Below are positions 195 to 3,646 of a DNA stretch of 3,646 nt, one piece after another. Position 1 is the first letter of the stretch; each line of letters begins with the position of its first letter. A program made the translations under genes and the position numbers. Below the pieces are notes generated by a model. That model made no database searches, was not told the origin of the DNA, and saw only the letters and a list, made by a program, of their open reading frames with translations. This DNA comes from a virus (lineage: Duplodnaviria > Heunggongvirae > Uroviricota > Caudoviricetes): the IMG/VR virus record IMGVR_UViG_2737471819_000028, positions 1-3,646 of that record. One strand, 5' to 3'.

Positions 195-1130
195 ATGAAT
201 ACTCTTACCAAAGAATGGTTACAGAACACGATTACCAGCATTGAGTCAGCACGGGATGAAATACCGTTCGGACTCGATGAAGATCAAAACAACATGCTTA
301 CCGCATTAAAAATTGCACTGGCATCGCTGGAAGCAAAACCAATAGGTGCTTTCCACATTGCAGAACAGCAGGTCGATGGCACAAGTGACTACATCAAGGA
401 TGGGGAATGGCCTATTGATAATGGGATTATTGAAGTATACGCCGCCCCTCCAATGCCAGTAGTACCTGAAGAAAAACCAATGCCCAACCCTCTTAAAATG
501 TACGCGGTCGATGCTGTTGCCGCTATTGCAGAGGTGAGAGGCTGGAATGCCTGCCGAGCCGCCATGCTTCATGCTGAGCCTGTAAGTAATAGTGATGAGT
601 TACCGCTGGACTATCTGCAAGGCCATAAAGACGGTCTGGAGTGGGCGGCGCAACAGGCAGAGGCCAATCATCCGCAAACAGGTGACTGGTTGTACGATGA
701 CCCAATCGAGCTTGCCAGGGCGATTCGCAAAGGTCCGGATATTCCTGAATTTAAGTCAGTATCTGTTGATGAGGATGATAACTTCTACTCGTGGTTTGGC
801 AGGTTCTGGTATGAAAATTATCAGAAAAATAATTACACAACATCTGCAAAACAGATGCTTGGTACGATGGCTGAATTTGCCTATAGGGCAGGTAGAGAGT
901 CGGCAGCGCTGGCTGGCAACTCTCCGGTAATTCCGGATGGTTGGATAAGCTGTAGTGAGCGAATGCCCGCTCAAGATGATTGGATTTTAATTTCTTCAAA
1001 GCACGGCGAGTATATGGCAGGACAGGTACAAGGGGAATACGTGGAGTTGAGCGACGGCACTTTATCGTGGTTAGGGAACGCCTTGTTCTGGATGCCTCTA
1101 CCAGAACCGCCTCGATTAAAGGAGCTATAA
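195..1130 (+). CDS. Phage-associated protein of unknown function, 311 aa, strongly acidic, with a C-terminal DUF551-like domain
   Basis: Longest non-integrase ORF, ATG at 195, tandem stops TAA TAG at 1128-1133. The C-terminal ~70 aa (DGWISCSERMPAQDDW...GEYVELSDG...WLGNALFWMPLPEPP) match my recollection of the DUF551 signature found at the C-terminus of enterobacterial prophage proteins. A Pro-rich linker (AAPPMPVVPEEKPMPNPL, about nt 441-494) separates an N-terminal region from the rest. A manual count gives about 49 D+E against 23 K+R. The Shine-Dalgarno is weak, consistent with coupling to the upstream ORF. Confidence 0.8.
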   Translation: MNTLTKEWLQNTITSIESARDEIPFGLDEDQNNMLTALKIALASLEAKPIGAFHIAEQQVDGTSDYIKDGEWPIDNGIIEVYAAPPMPVVPEEKPMPNPLKMYAVDAVAAIAEVRGWNACRAAMLHAEPVSNSDELPLDYLQGHKDGLEWAAQQAEANHPQTGDWLYDDPIELARAIRKGPDIPEFKSVSVDEDDNFYSWFGRFWYENYQKNNYTTSAKQMLGTMAEFAYRAGRESAALAGNSPVIPDGWISCSERMPAQDDWILISSKHGEYMAGQVQGEYVELSDGTLSWLGNALFWMPLPEPPRLKEL

Positions 1131-1244
1131 TAGTGAACTATTATATCTATTTGTATTAAAAGAGTTTTTATAAAATAAATCTTCCAAAGCATGTAAAAAC
1201 ACTGTTAATCTTAACGTGTGTGAAACGTGAAGAGAGGTGTTGAA
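1131..1244 (+). promoter_or_regulatory. AT-rich intergenic region with a strong Shine-Dalgarno and candidate promoter/operator elements for the downstream small gene
   Basis: Much more AT-rich than the flanking coding sequence (TATTATATCTATTTGTATTAAAAGAGTTTTTATAAAATAAAT). Contains TTGTAT (1151-1156) and TATAAAAT-like -10 candidates but with no clean 17-bp spacing. Direct repeat AACGTG at 1213-1218 and 1224-1229, 11 bp apart. GAGGTG Shine-Dalgarno at 1234-1239, 5 nt before ATG 1245. The promoter assignment is tentative. Confidence 0.3.
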
Positions 1245-1526
1245 ATGAGCATTCATGATTTGTGTGAAGATCAAGAGCAATGGGCTATGCAGACCCTTAT
1301 GGGATCAGGAGTTCTTGCAAGGTGCAGAATCCATAACGATGTAATTTTAGACAGCGGAAATGATGCTTCTTCTGCTTATAAATTAGGAACTTACCTATAT
1401 CAAAAAGATAATAGCTGCAACTTATTCAATACTCTTACTGAAGCCCGCGACGCAATAAAGGATGCATATGAATCGTATTGTGGGATCGATGATTGCCCAC
1501 AATGCTCAAAATACATTGACGATTAA
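1245..1526 (+). CDS. Hypothetical small acidic protein (93 aa) with a C-terminal CxxxxCxxC motif
   Basis: ORF in the track starts at GTG 1227, but the in-frame ATG at 1245 is preceded by a strong Shine-Dalgarno (GAGGTG, 5-nt spacer), so 1245 is the preferred start. Stop TAA at 1524-1526. The protein ends ...YESYCGIDDCPQCSKYIDD. Net acidic by manual count (about 16 D+E against 7 K+R). No family recognised. Confidence 0.6.
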   Translation: MSIHDLCEDQEQWAMQTLMGSGVLARCRIHNDVILDSGNDASSAYKLGTYLYQKDNSCNLFNTLTEARDAIKDAYESYCGIDDCPQCSKYIDD

Positions 1527-1545
1527 TAATATGAACAAGTAACTA

Positions 1546-1573
1546 TCCTCGCACTCGCGGGGATTTCTTTTAT
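1546..1573 (+). terminator. Intrinsic-terminator-like hairpin downstream of the 93-aa gene
   Basis: Stem 1546-1552 (TCCTCGC) pairs with 1557-1563 (GCGGGGA): 7 bp with one G-U wobble, loop ACTC. Followed by the T-rich tract TTTCTTTTAT (1564-1573). Lies 20 nt after the stop codon. Confidence 0.5.
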
Positions 1574-1576
1574 CTG

Positions 1577-1601
1577 AACTCGCTACGGCGGGTTTTGTTT
1601 T
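1577..1601 (+). terminator. Second, tandem terminator-like hairpin abutting the next gene's ribosome-binding site
   Basis: Stem 1577-1583 (AACTCGC) pairs with 1588-1594 (GCGGGTT), loop TACG. T-tract TTTTGTTTT runs to 1601. The core (CTCGC-N4-GCGGG plus T-run) is nearly identical to the hairpin at 1546-1573. The T-tract runs directly into the GGAG Shine-Dalgarno at 1604-1607. Confidence 0.45.
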
Positions 1602-1613
1602 ATGGAGATGATT

Positions 1614-1913
1614 ATGGCCTGTTCAACATTCAACCCTCTAACGTTACAGAAATACCAGCCAGACCCTGAAGATTTATGCTCACTGTGTGGCGGAAATCAT
1701 GGCAAAGCCGCCATGATCGAATGTAAAGACAAAATCCACATTTGCCTTAATTGCGTTGATGTCCTCGTTGATATCAAAAATGAGAGAGAAGATAAAAAGC
1801 GTAGCGAGGCTGTTCGCGCCTTAGATTCATGGATGCGAGATGGGTATAGTGCCGCGCAAATTTATGACTTAGCAATATCAAAAGGCGAAATACCAGGAGT
1901 GCGCATCGAATAA
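1614..1913 (+). CDS. Small zinc-ribbon-like protein (about 99 aa), function unknown
   Basis: ORF 1602-1913. ATG 1614 has the best Shine-Dalgarno context (GGAG at 1604-1607, 6-nt spacer); ATGs at 1602 and 1608 are in frame but lack one. Stop TAA at 1911-1913. Cys pattern CSLCGG-x12-C-x6-CLNC (CxxC...CxxC) is typical of a Zn-ribbon or treble-clef fold. Small Zn-binding proteins are common in this position in lambdoid prophages. Confidence 0.6.
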   Translation: MACSTFNPLTLQKYQPDPEDLCSLCGGNHGKAAMIECKDKIHICLNCVDVLVDIKNEREDKKRSEAVRALDSWMRDGYSAAQIYDLAISKGEIPGVRIE

Positions 1914-1953
1914 GACGTAACCAATATTCGAATTGAAGAACTGAAAGAACACC

Positions 1954-1978
1954 AAGCCGCCTGATGGCGGTTTTTTCT
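1954..1978 (+). terminator. Rho-independent terminator between the Zn-ribbon gene and xis
   Basis: GC stem CCGCC (1957-1961) / GGCGG (1966-1970), loop TGAT, extendable by A-T and G-U pairs to about 8 bp. Followed directly by TTTTTTCTT (1971-1979). Canonical intrinsic-terminator architecture, about 40 nt after the upstream stop and about 20 nt before the xis start. Confidence 0.65.
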
Positions 1979-1998
1979 TACACATGCAGAGGCAACTT

Positions 1999-2283
1999 AT
2001 GCGCGAGTTAGTAAACCAACATAACCATGGCATTCAGCCAGTCATCACACCTGTTGTACAGATAAATGCGAATGAATGGGTAACACTGGAGCTTTTAATG
2101 GCTGTAACAGGCCTGAGAAAAGGAACAATATTACGCGCCAGGGACAGTGCGTGGATGAACGGCAGAGAATATAAACAAATCGCCCCCGACGGAACGCCAA
2201 AGAAAAACAGCGAATGTCTCTATCATCTTCCTACCATCAACACTTGGATCAAAAACCAACCCTTACCATCTCAGGATGTTTAA
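1999..2283 (+). CDS. xis: Putative excisionase / recombination directionality factor (Rac XisR/YdaQ-like, DUF1233-type)
   Basis: Small basic protein immediately upstream of and co-directional with the integrase. The segment EWVTLELLMAVTGLRKGTILRARDSAWMNGREYKQIAPDG...INTWIKN resembles the conserved core of the putative-excisionase family typified by Rac XisR, as I recall it. ORF track start is ATG 1984; ATG 1999 is preferred because AGAGG (1988-1992) lies 6 nt upstream. Stop TAA at 2281-2283. Confidence 0.75.
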   Translation: MRELVNQHNHGIQPVITPVVQINANEWVTLELLMAVTGLRKGTILRARDSAWMNGREYKQIAPDGTPKKNSECLYHLPTINTWIKNQPLPSQDV

Positions 2284-2335
2284 TTCTTGTCCATAAGAGT
2301 ATAACCTGAGCGTGCTCTTGGACGCAGGAGGAACA

Positions 2336-3646
2336 ATGGCGAATTCAGCCTATCCAGCCGGCGTTGAAAATCACGGAGGAAAACTCCGAATAACGTTTAA
2401 GTACAGGGGTAAACGAGTGCGCGAAAATCTTCGCGTGCCCGATACACCGAAAAACAGAAAGATCGCTGGTGAGTTAAGGGCTTCGGTCTGCTTTGCAATC
2501 AGAACAGGAACGTTTGATTATGCCGATCGATTCCCTGACTCACCTAACCTGAAGCTATTTGGCCTGGTAAAAAAAGATATCACCGTCGGTGAACTGGCAC
2601 AGAAATGGCTTACTCTGAAAGCAATGGAAATCGGTAGTAACGCCTTAAATCGTTATCAATCAGTGATGAAAAATATGCTACCGAGGCTTGGTCCTGGCAG
2701 GCTGGCGTCATCGATTACAAAAGAAGATCTGCTGTTTATCAGGAAAGATTTACTGACCGGGGAAAAGGGAAGCAGGAAAACCAGCACGTCCCGAAAAGGA
2801 AGAACCGTACCCACAGTGAACTATTACATGACAACAACAGCCGGAATGTTCAGCTTTGCCGCCGAAAACGGGTATCTGGAGAAAAACCCGTTTAATTCAA
2901 TAACACCGCTGAGGAAATCAAAACCAGTGCCGGATCCACTGACCAGAGATGAGTTTAGCCGTCTCATTGATGCCTGCCATCATCAACAGACCAAAAACCT
3001 CTGGACAGTGGCTGTTTTTACAGGGATGCGACACGGTGAAATTGCCGCACTTGCATGGGAGGATATCGACCTGAAAGCTGGCACGATAACAGTGCGACGA
3101 AATTTTACAAAAATAGGTGATTTTACGCTACCAAAGACCGACGCAGGCACTAACCGGGTTATACATCTTCTGGCACCAGCAATTGAAGCACTTAAAAACC
3201 AGGCGATGCTTACTCGTCTTAGCAGGCAGCATCAGATCACTGTTCAATTACGCGAGTACGGAAGAACAATTTTGCACGAGTGCACTTTTGTTTTCTGTCC
3301 GCAAATCGTTCGCAAGAATCACAAGGCGGGTATTAACTACGCGGTAAGCTCCATCGGAGCGACATGGGATTCAGCAATAAAAAGAGCGGGTATCCGATCC
3401 CGTAAAGCGTATCAGTCACGCCATACCTATGCGTGCTGGGCTTTATCTTCCGGAGCAAACCCGACATTTATTGCATCACAGATGGGGCACTCCAGCGCCA
3501 GCATGGTCTACAATGTTTATGGTGCATGGATGCCTGAGTGCAGCGTGACTCAAGTTGCCATGTTGAATAATGTCCTTAATGCCCGTGCCCCAGACGTGCC
3601 CCAAAGTGACCAGGAGGATGAAATAAAATTATATTTTTCAAAATGA
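2336..3646 (+). CDS. int: Phage tyrosine integrase (site-specific recombinase) with N-terminal arm-type DNA-binding domain, Rac IntR-like
   Basis: Tyrosine-recombinase catalytic motifs are readable in the translation: TGMRHGE (Arg I), LPKTDAG (Lys), YQSRHTYACW (Arg II/His), QMGHSS (His) and MVYNVYGAW (Tyr nucleophile). The N-terminus GKLRITFKYRGKRVRENL...FDYADRFPDS is typical of the arm-binding domain of Rac/IntR-type integrases. ORF track starts at GTG 2312; ATG 2336 is preferred because AGGAGG (2326-2331) precedes it. Stop TGA at 3644-3646 is the window end. Confidence 0.93.
   Translation: MANSAYPAGVENHGGKLRITFKYRGKRVRENLRVPDTPKNRKIAGELRASVCFAIRTGTFDYADRFPDSPNLKLFGLVKKDITVGELAQKWLTLKAMEIGSNALNRYQSVMKNMLPRLGPGRLASSITKEDLLFIRKDLLTGEKGSRKTSTSRKGRTVPTVNYYMTTTAGMFSFAAENGYLEKNPFNSITPLRKSKPVPDPLTRDEFSRLIDACHHQQTKNLWTVAVFTGMRHGEIAALAWEDIDLKAGTITVRRNFTKIGDFTLPKTDAGTNRVIHLLAPAIEALKNQAMLTRLSRQHQITVQLREYGRTILHECTFVFCPQIVRKNHKAGINYAVSSIGATWDSAIKRAGIRSRKAYQSRHTYACWALSSGANPTFIASQMGHSSASMVYNVYGAWMPECSVTQVAMLNNVLNARAPDVPQSDQEDEIKLYFSK

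What the first reader, a model, noticed from the sequence alone, without database searches (positions are those of the whole stretch)
1954..2001. Canonical intrinsic terminator about 20 nt upstream of xis-int
A GC-rich hairpin plus T-run sits between the Zn-ribbon gene and the excisionase start, with no space for a promoter between them. This would keep xis-int silent from upstream transcription unless an antiterminator acts, or unless an internal promoter drives int alone. It points to an antitermination factor encoded elsewhere in the prophage and gives a testable model for how excision is controlled here.
Basis: partly seen in the sequence, partly recalled or inferred. Interest (0 to 1): 0.45.

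Follow-up and report, generated by a model that had tools for sequence, protein, structure and literature searches.

The report
Lambda-type terminator before xis-int
The hairpin is a real, canonical intrinsic terminator, but it is an ordinary and already described feature: a 67-base block identical to the one just upstream of xis in phage lambda, shared by many lambdoid phages at the border of their integration genes and normally read through by the phage N antiterminator.

Summary
There is a GC hairpin at 1954-1973 (core CCGCC/GGCGG, loop UGAU, about -9 to -12 kcal/mol). It is followed by T6CTT (1971-1979), 19 nt before the xis ATG at 1999.

The window is the int end of a 933W-type lambdoid prophage at wrbA. 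The hairpin lies in a 67-bp block (1913-1979) that is 100% identical to lambda 29103-29169, directly upstream of lambda pI/xis. It is 95-100% identical in HK022, 434, P22, L, Sf6, HK620, HK140 and many Stx phages: 169 phage records and 2487 of 5426 complete E. coli genomes.

The lambda copy was already predicted as terminator "t5" (Bloch 2014). Records of HK140 and L annotate it as a terminator. P22 assigns it to an antisense RNA. Phage 434 has a different hairpin, "t'-I", at the same place.

Flanks reassort freely: 4 upstream and 7 downstream classes in 15 combinations. It is therefore also a mosaic module joint.

It is present in 933W and in the O111:H- 11128 prophage. The only 100% matches in the collection searched lie in a 6-kb prophage remnant without N.

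I found no lambda-type CII/pI site. The finding is ordinary and of low interest.

The parts
1913..1979 (+). Conserved 67-bp block that carries the terminator. It is identical to lambda 29103-29169 and serves as the joint between the exo-xis (ea) region and the integration module.
   Evidence: 100% identity to lambda and 95-100% to HK022, 434, P22, Sf6, HK620 and HK140. Flanks fall into 4 upstream and 7 downstream classes in 15 combinations.
1954..1973 (+). Terminator hairpin: core stem 1957-1961/1966-1970 (CCGCC/GGCGG), loop UGAU 1962-1965, extended by one G-U and two A-U pairs.
   Evidence: All 42 cells pair across 7 related hairpins, with 2 double changes, both from 434 t'-I.
1971..1979 (+). 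U-tract TTTTTTCTT. Its first three T also form the base of the extended stem.
1989..1992 (+). Shine-Dalgarno GAGG of xis, 6 nt before the ATG at 1999.
   Evidence: Sequence. RefSeq places the xis start at window 1999.
1999..2283 (+). xis (excisionase, DUF1233 family).
   Evidence: Pfam PF06806, E = 1e-30. Annotated as excisionase.
2336..3646 (+). int, a tyrosine integrase (933W type, attB in wrbA).
   Evidence: Pfam Arm-DNA-bind_2 plus Phage_integrase. Annotation.
1614..1913 (+). Its stop codon abuts the conserved block.
   Evidence: No Pfam match.
1545..1595 (+). Second conserved terminator block: tandem hairpins 1545-1564 and 1576-1595. They match lambda t3/t4 and the 'tL4' annotated in 434 and HK022. 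Homology between the window and 933W begins here, at 1540.
   Evidence: Energies are -11.6 and -10.5 kcal/mol.

Best explanation
The hairpin plus U-tract is a Rho-independent terminator on the leftward early (pL) strand of a 933W-type lambdoid prophage. It is the same sequence that precedes pI/xis in lambda, and the positional equivalent of the terminator annotated t'-I in phage 434.

**In an intact phage (inferred from the lambda paradigm)**
- RNA polymerase that starts at pL is modified by N at nutL.
- It then reads through this terminator, the tandem tL4 hairpins 350 nt upstream, and the other terminators of the operon. Xis and Int are therefore made together after induction.
- Polymerase that has not passed nutL stops 19 nt before xis. 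Stray transcription in a lysogen from constitutive promoters in the exo-xis region therefore cannot make excisionase.

**Second role**
- Because the block is nearly identical in many otherwise unrelated lambdoid genomes, it also serves as a patch of homology where integration modules are swapped.

**Shown versus inferred**
- Shown here: the structure, its conservation, the reassortment of flanks, and the presence of N and nutL in close relatives.
- Inferred: termination efficiency, N read-through at this site, and the insulating role.
For: - **Structure.** Canonical hairpin plus U-tract.
- **Identity to lambda.** The block matches lambda 29103-29169, where its T-run runs straight into the CII box TTGCGTGTAATTGC of pI.
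- **Prior prediction.** ARNold (Erpin and RNAmotif) predicted the same lambda sequence as terminator t5, at -11.2 kcal/mol (PMC4195576 Table 4).
- **Record annotations.** HK140 and L annotate it as a rho-independent terminator on the same strand.
- **A different hairpin fills the same slot elsewhere.**
  - 434 t'-I: GCCGCA-TCAA-TGCGGC plus T4CTT, before pI.
  - TL-2011c type: CAACCGCC-TTCG-GGCGGT plus T6CTT, before the same 933W-type xis.
  - All 31 loci found with this xis leader have an intact hairpin and T-run.
- **Pairing.** It is kept in 100% of cells across 7 related hairpins, with two double changes.
- **Antiterminator.** N and nutL are upstream on the same strand in 933W and in O111:H- 11128. 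That operon has at least five other terminator-like sites on the coding strand.
- **No rival promoter.** No competing promoter or CII site lies between the hairpin and int.
Against: - No experimental measurement of termination at this sequence was found in the accessible literature. The lambda t5 entry is a prediction only.
- The stem is short, with 5 G-C pairs, so termination could be partial.
- The covariation test is not significant (42 of 500 shuffles reach the observed score). The copies are almost identical, so conservation could reflect recent horizontal spread rather than selection for structure.
- About 8% of copies carry a single mismatch in the GC core.
- In the 100%-match genomes there is no N or nutL, so the read-through half of the model cannot operate there.
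- How Int would be made for integration is unexplained, because there is no pI-like site.
Confidence: 0.75

Rival explanations
1. The block is conserved mainly as a recombination linker or relic. It would be the 3' end of lambda orf55 plus its hairpin, kept because homologous exchange between lambdoid phages happens there. Termination would be weak or incidental to regulation of xis-int.
For: - In lambda the first 52 nt of the block encode the last 17 codons of orf55, and the stop codon lies in the hairpin loop.
- PMC8614690 notes 'a portion of orf55' near xis in 933W.
- Flanks reassort: 15 combinations of 4 upstream and 7 downstream classes.
- In TL-2011c-type phages the homology breakpoint lies inside the hairpin.
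- Near-identity with no covariation points to recent spread.
- Boundary-sequence recombination is an established proposal. Sf6 annotates a 'boundary sequence' abutting the block.
Against: - The two roles are not exclusive.
- Where the block is absent, another hairpin plus T-run occupies the same position (434 t'-I, TL-2011c). A pure homology patch would not require that.
- The hairpin and T-run are the least variable part of the block.
Confidence: 0.15
2. The hairpin works mainly on the opposite strand. It would end an antisense RNA that starts inside or beyond xis, as annotated for the C1-activated aI RNA of P22. That RNA would damp leftward transcription into xis-int during lysogenisation.
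For: - The P22 RefSeq record annotates exactly this hairpin (equivalent to window 1954-1974) as the terminator of the 485-nt aI RNA on the other strand.
- The scan also lists the minus-strand hairpin 1970-1957 with tail CTTGGTGTTC.
Against: - The minus-strand tail is a poor U-tract (CUUGGUGUUCUUUC), whereas the plus strand has U6CUU.
- No promoter-like site and no CII/C1 box lies on the minus strand downstream, within xis, in this window.
- The P22 promoter lies in eaC, a gene absent here.
Confidence: 0.05
3. The 67-nt block is the body of a stable 3'-UTR-derived small RNA, or an Hfq-binding mRNA 3' end. A-rich A-R-N triplets (GAAGAACUGAAAGAACACCAAG) would sit ahead of a terminator hairpin and U-tail, with a function of their own beyond stopping transcription.
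For: - A discrete left edge at about 1913-1917 is shared by two unrelated upstream classes, the L0063 type and the P22 eaG type.
- The 40 nt upstream of the hairpin are as conserved as the hairpin, even where they are non-coding.
- The layout of ARN-like triplets, hairpin and U-tail resembles Hfq-bound RNAs. Prophage sRNAs of that design are common in EHEC.
Against: - No Rfam family matches.
- No orphan Hfq peak was reported near this position of Sp5 in Tree et al. 2014. The Sp5 peaks in the parts of the supplement I read map elsewhere.
- No promoter lies upstream of the block.
- Conservation of the 40 nt is explained by orf55 coding in the majority class, 100 of 131 loci.
Confidence: 0.05

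Closest known systems
Phage lambda terminator immediately upstream of pI/xis (lambda 29103-29125; 't5' of Bloch et al. 2014, PMC4195576; positional equivalent of 434 t'-I)
   Same: - 67 of 67 bases are identical, including hairpin, loop and T6CTT.
- It has the same strand relative to pL and the same position just before xis-int.
- The upstream neighbourhood is the same: an ea8.5-like gene, then the tL4 tandem hairpins, then one small ORF, then this block.
   Different: - In lambda the T-run merges into the CII box of pI (CTTGCGTGTAATTGC) and xis is the lambda type.
- Here it is followed by CTTACACATGCAGAGGCAACTTATG, with no CII box, and by a DUF1233-type xis and a 933W/Rac-type int.
- In lambda the block overlaps the orf55 C-terminus. 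Here it is non-coding.
N-antiterminated pL operon terminators of lambdoid phages (tL1-tL4, tI), including 933W/H-19B N-nutL
   Same: An intrinsic terminator inside a long early operon whose distal genes are expressed only by N-modified polymerase. N and nutL are annotated in 933W and present in O111:H- 11128.
   Different: - Read-through at this particular site has not been tested.
- In the remnant prophage that matches the window 100% there is no N or nutL.
Mosaic 'boundary sequences' or linkers of lambdoid phages (concept cited in PMC3029335; bsq features in the Sf6 record)
   Same: A short, near-identical sequence at a junction between modules that otherwise differ. The flanks reassort.
   Different: - The Sf6 bsq2 feature starts at the last base of this block and covers the downstream pI/gene 18 segment. 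It is not the block itself.
- I could not read the original HK620 and Sf6 papers to see whether this block is listed there.
P22 aI RNA terminator (NC_002371.2 23398-23418)
   Same: The same hairpin sequence, 98% identical over 63 bp.
   Different: - It is annotated on the opposite strand, for an antisense RNA from a C1-activated promoter in eaC.
- That promoter and gene are absent from this window.

Membership tests
Rho-independent (intrinsic) terminator | GC-rich stem-loop of about 5-12 bp with a short loop | tested here: met
   5 G-C pairs, 1 G-U pair and 2 A-U pairs, with a tetraloop. Energy is -8.9 to -12.4 kcal/mol.
Rho-independent (intrinsic) terminator | U-rich tract immediately 3' of the stem | tested here: met
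   T6CTT at 1971-1979.
Rho-independent (intrinsic) terminator | Location at the end of a transcription unit or between genes, on the transcribed strand | tested here: met
   It lies between the stop codon of the L0063 homologue (1913) and the xis start (1999). It is on the strand that carries all genes of the window.
Rho-independent (intrinsic) terminator | Measured release of transcripts at the U-tract | not testable with these tools
   No experiment was found in the accessible literature. The lambda t5 entry is a prediction.
Lambda pL-operon terminator upstream of xis (t5 / t'-I position) | Sequence homology to the lambda element at 29103-29169 | tested here: met
   100% identity over 67 bp.
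Lambda pL-operon terminator upstream of xis (t5 / t'-I position) | Same position and orientation: directly 5' of the excisionase-integrase pair, downstream of tL4 | tested here: met
   The order ea8.5-like gene, tL4 tandem hairpins, small ORF, block, xis, int is found in both.
Lambda pL-operon terminator upstream of xis (t5 / t'-I position) | Adjacent CII-activated pI promoter (TTGC-N6-TTGC) | tested here: not met
   No box with up to 1 mismatch lies on the + strand of the window, and no TTG-N7-TTG at all. This is a feature of the lambda integration module, not of the terminator block.
N-dependent antitermination system | N gene and nut site upstream in cis on the same transcript | tested here: inconclusive
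   Met in 933W and in O111:H- 11128. Not met in the remnant prophage of the 100%-match genomes. The 99.9%-match prophage in strain 2014C-3061 (locus L013) has no 933W-type N. The window's own source is unknown.
Mosaic boundary (linker) sequence | Near-identical short sequence flanked by unrelated sequence on both sides in different phages, with flank classes recombined | tested here: met
   131 loci fall into 4 upstream and 7 downstream classes in 15 combinations. Alignment.

The most novel reading that the evidence does not exclude
The terminator hairpins of the lambdoid exo-xis region (this block, tL4, and the CCGCC-TTCG-GGCGG hairpin) may not be passive homology patches. They may be the actual crossover points for module exchange. 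TL-2011c-type phages look like recombinants joined inside the shared CCGCC/GGCGG stem. The 31 loci found with the 933W-type xis carry one of two alternative hairpins that differ in the 5' flank and loop but share the 3' arm and T-run. If so, short GC stems plus T-runs would be preferred substrates for phage recombinases (Red/Erf type) or for template switching. Transcription punctuation and genome mosaicism would then be mechanistically coupled. A second, less likely novelty is that the block is released as an Hfq-binding 3'-end RNA.
Probability: 0.1. Interest if true: 0.45.

Novelty: already known. Interest (0 to 1): 0.12.

Why it matters
It matters little beyond correct annotation.

- It confirms that 933W-type Stx prophages keep the lambda logic. 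Excisionase and integrase lie behind terminators and are reached by N-modified transcription from pL.
- The same 67-bp terminator block is one of the commonest short phage sequences in E. coli, present in 46% of complete genomes. It marks the joint where integration modules are exchanged.
- For Stx-phage biology, one open point is how Int is expressed for lysogenisation. No lambda-type pI is visible behind this terminator.
- Prophage remnants such as the one that matches the window exactly retain xis-int behind terminators with no antiterminator in cis. That should keep them locked in place.

Tried and rejected
- **Covariation test of the hairpin.** The copies are too similar. Among 136 copies only a handful of single changes occur. 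Across 7 related hairpins the score is not significant. The test is uninformative rather than negative.
- **Rfam scan of the window at E ≤ 1.** Only a chance mir-277 hit appeared at 1159-1206, and nothing at the element.
- **Search for a lambda-type CII box.** TTGC-N6-TTGC with up to 1 mismatch gives only two minus-strand hits, far from int. 933W has no exact box in its first 22 kb. Its pRE-region box reads TTGCTGTAACTTGT.
- **Lenient sigma-70 scan of 1880-2340.** Two weak 8/12 matches appear inside xis. I do not regard them as evidence for an int promoter.
- **Hfq-bound sRNA idea.** Tree et al. 2014 supplementary Table S2 has no orphan peak near the expected Sakai Sp5 coordinates, which I estimated at about 1.2477 Mb.
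- **Literature.**
  - Plunkett 1999 (933W genome) is not held.
  - The classic lambda, HK620, Sf6 and P22 papers are not in the library. Names such as tL4 and t'-I therefore rest on GenBank record annotations.
  - I could not confirm that the lambda copy itself was ever called t'I.
  - tL3 searches returned only vector papers.

Full report
**1. What the window is**

The 3646-bp window is the integrase end of a lambdoid prophage of the 933W type, inserted in wrbA.
- Positions 1540-3646 are 99.9% identical to phage 933W, VT2-Sakai, Min27 and dozens of other Stx phages.
- The whole window matches at 100% only two E. coli chromosomes, OkiPb01680 and OkiPb01700. It matches two others at 99.9%. O111:H- 11128 matches positions 312-3646 at 99.9%.

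All genes are on the + strand:

| Coordinates | Gene |
|---|---|
| 195-1130 | DUF551 protein |
| 1245-1526 | ea8.5-like protein (Pfam PF20735) |
| 1999-2283 | xis (DUF1233 excisionase) |
| 2336-3646 | int (Arm-DNA-bind_2 plus Phage_integrase) |

**2. The observation**

- The sequence at 1954-1979 reads AAGCCGCC-TGAT-GGCGGTTT-TTTCTT.
- The core stem has five G-C pairs (1957-1961 with 1966-1970). It can be extended by one G-U and two A-U pairs.
- The loop is UGAU and the tail is U6CUU.
- The pattern scan reports the site.
- ViennaRNA gives -8.9 kcal/mol for the core and -12.4 kcal/mol for the 8-bp stem.
- The 72-nt context folds better than 198 of 200 shuffles.
- Nineteen bases separate the last T from the xis ATG at 1999, and they contain the GAGG ribosome-binding site (1989-1992).
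Its end coordinate, 2001, simply includes the xis start.

**3. What it is: a conserved lambdoid block**

A BLAST of 1880-2120 showed that window 1913-1979 is a separate unit of homology.
- It is 100% identical to lambda 29103-29169.
- It is 95-100% identical in HK022, 434, P22, L, ST64T, Sf6, HK620, HK140, CUS-3, Stx2-86 and others, while the flanks do not match.
- It occurs in 169 phage records.
- It occurs at 3203 places in 2487 of 5426 complete E. coli genomes.

In lambda the block lies directly upstream of xis.
- Its T-run continues into the CII box of pI: TTTTTTCTTGCGTGTAATTGC.
- Its first 52 nt encode the C-terminus of orf55.

An exact-word scan of IMG/VR with an anchor upstream of the hairpin, added to the fetched records, gave 131 loci with both flanks.
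- These fall into 4 upstream classes: L0063 type, P22 eaG type, lambda orf55 type and one singleton.
- They fall into 7 downstream classes: 933W xis, lambda pI-xis, HK620/Sf6 pI-hkaC, HK140 AlpA type, HK022/434 ORF114 type, P22 eaC and one other.
- The classes occur in 15 combinations.
- The block is thus a joint at which the integration module is exchanged. This fits the 'boundary sequence' idea for phage mosaicism. The Sf6 record annotates such a boundary starting at the last base of the block.

**4. Prior descriptions**

- Bloch et al. 2014 (PMC4195576, Table 4) ran ARNold on the lambda exo-xis region. They list 't5_lambda AAGAACACCAAGCCGCCTGATGGCGGTTTTTTCTTGCGTG', predicted by Erpin and RNAmotif at -11.2 kcal/mol. 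This is the same hairpin.
- Their t3_lambda and t4_lambda are the tandem hairpins found here at 1545-1564 and 1576-1595.
- GenBank records of 434 (M60848) and HK022 (X51962) call that tandem site tL4.
- The 434 record also annotates 't'-I' directly before the pI box. There it is a different hairpin, GCCGCA-TCAA-TGCGGC plus T4CTT. The 434 copy of the 67-bp block lies 430 bp further upstream, in front of ORF114, and has a weakened stem (GGAGG).
- HK140 and phage L annotate the block's hairpin as a rho-independent terminator on the pL strand.
- The P22 RefSeq record assigns the same hairpin to the opposite strand, as terminator of an antisense 'aI' RNA.
- PMC8614690 remarks that 933W has 'a portion of orf55' near xis, which is this block.
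- The feature is therefore already known as a predicted or annotated terminator. I found no direct measurement of its activity.

**5. Evidence that a terminator, not just a sequence, is kept at this spot**

- The copies are too alike for a proper covariation test.
- However, the slot in front of the integration genes is filled by a hairpin plus T-run even when the sequence differs. Examples are 434 t'-I and the TL-2011c-type hairpin CAACCGCC-TTCG-GGCGGT.
- An exact-word scan for the 933W-type xis leader found 31 loci. Fourteen have the lambda-type hairpin and 17 the TTCG-loop hairpin. All are intact, and sequence identity resumes inside the 3' arm and T-run.
- On an alignment of seven such hairpins all 42 cells pair, and two pairs show double changes: C-G to A-U, and A-U to G-C against the commonest pair. 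The shuffle control is not significant, at 42 of 500.

**6. Mechanism**

*The antiterminator*
- 933W carries N (9065-9448) and an annotated nutL (9614-9680) on the same strand as xis-int.
- The O111:H- 11128 prophage has both at 100% identity.
- Between N and int that prophage has at least five other terminator-like sites on the coding strand, including tL4.

*Most likely function, from established knowledge of lambda*
- N-modified polymerase from pL reads through intrinsic terminators and expresses xis and int together.
- On that basis the most likely role of the hairpin is to stop any unmodified polymerase 19 nt before xis while letting the induced pL transcript through.

*Caveat: the remnant*
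- In the genomes that match the window exactly, the prophage is a 6.1-kb remnant (L001 17542-23646).
- It carries ant, traR/orf73-like, DUF4752 and frameshifted ea22 genes, followed by the genes of the window.
- It lies between the two halves of wrbA, with no N or nutL within 20 kb.
- There tL4 and this terminator would simply shut xis-int off from transcription of the upstream genes.

*Caveat: no int promoter*
- Lambda, HK620 and Sf6 have a CII-activated pI right behind the block.
- This window has no TTGC-N6-TTGC-like site on the + strand and no convincing sigma-70 promoter before int.
- 933W's own pRE-region box is TTGCTGTAACTTGT.
- How Int is supplied for lysogenisation is therefore not explained by what I can see.

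**7. Rivals**

1. *Linker or relic only.* This is plausible as a second role, but it does not explain the functional replacement by other hairpins.
2. *Antisense terminator, as in P22.* The minus-strand tail CUUGGUGUUCUUUC is poor. No promoter or C1/CII box lies downstream on that strand in this window.
3. *Hfq-binding 3'-end RNA.*
   - There is no Rfam hit.
   - No orphan Hfq peak was reported near the expected Sp5 position in Tree et al. 2014.
   - That data set comes from uninduced cells, so it is weak negative evidence.

**8. Verdict**

The element is a well-distributed, previously predicted terminator block. Novelty: already known. Interest: low (0.12).

The residual points of interest are the apparent crossovers inside the hairpin, the lack of a recognisable pI in the 933W-type module, and the N-less remnant context.

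Noticed in passing
window 1540-1600 (hairpins 1545-1564 and 1576-1595, + strand): There is a second conserved terminator block: tandem hairpins identical to lambda t3/t4 (Bloch 2014), annotated tL4 in the 434 and HK022 records. Homology between the window and 933W starts exactly here (1540), so it is another mosaic joint at a terminator. The block continues through the GGAG ribosome-binding site of the next ORF.
   Followed up: partly
L010 (TL-2011c) 1470-1545; loci L137-L161: The 933W-type xis is preceded in nature by one of two hairpins: AAGCCGCC-TGAT-GGCGGTTT in 14 loci, or CAACCGCC-TTCG-GGCGGTTT in 17 loci. Identity resumes inside the 3' arm and T-run, which looks like recombination within the shared CCGCC/GGCGG stem. 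The TTCG version equals the phi24B 't3' stem-loop of Bloch 2014.
   Followed up: partly
L001 17488-23646 (E. coli OkiPb01680): In the only 100%-identical genomes the wrbA prophage is a 6.1-kb remnant (ant, traR-like, DUF4752, frameshifted ea22, then the genes of the window). It has no repressor, N, nutL or late genes. A promoter-like TTGACA-N18-CATACT and hairpins lie upstream of ant (about 17826-17900).
   Followed up: partly
window 3643-3646; L001 23643-24221: The int stop codon overlaps an ATG (ATGA). RefSeq uses that ATG as the start of a hybrid wrbA (MINHILRHVETMARAV...). The phage end replaces the first 18 native codons (MAKVLVLYYSMYGHIETM), which remain at the other prophage end (L001 17488-17541).
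   Followed up: partly
window 1980-2340: There is no lambda-type pI (CII box) or convincing sigma-70 promoter for int behind the terminator, unlike lambda, HK620 and Sf6, where pI abuts the same block. The 53-bp xis-int spacer has only a strong AGGAGG ribosome-binding site (2326-2331).
   Followed up: partly
window 195-1130: The 311-aa ORF with a C-terminal DUF551 domain is annotated by RefSeq as a short DUF551 pseudogene fragment plus a separate DUF551 gene. It may be a fusion or duplication junction. Homology to other Stx phages begins at about 908.
   Followed up: no
L016 (phage 434) 2069-2132: The 434 copy of the block has GGCGG changed to GGAGG in the 3' arm, weakening the hairpin from -13.0 to -7.3 kcal/mol in the same sequence context. 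It is followed by ORF114 and then a second, intact terminator (t'-I) before pI.
   Followed up: partly
L014 (O111:H- 11128) 4386-4766: tblastn finds a full-length copy of 933W N at 100% identity. RefSeq annotates only a 69-bp partial 'regulator' pseudogene at 4701-4769 in this stretch, so this is probably an annotation gap.
   Followed up: no
Tree et al. 2014 Table S2 (Sakai chromosome 1255628-1255753, minus strand): The orphan Hfq-binding peak EcOnc20 in Sp5 lies about 9.6 kb from the int end by my estimate. That would correspond to the nutL region of 933W (9614-9680).
   Followed up: no
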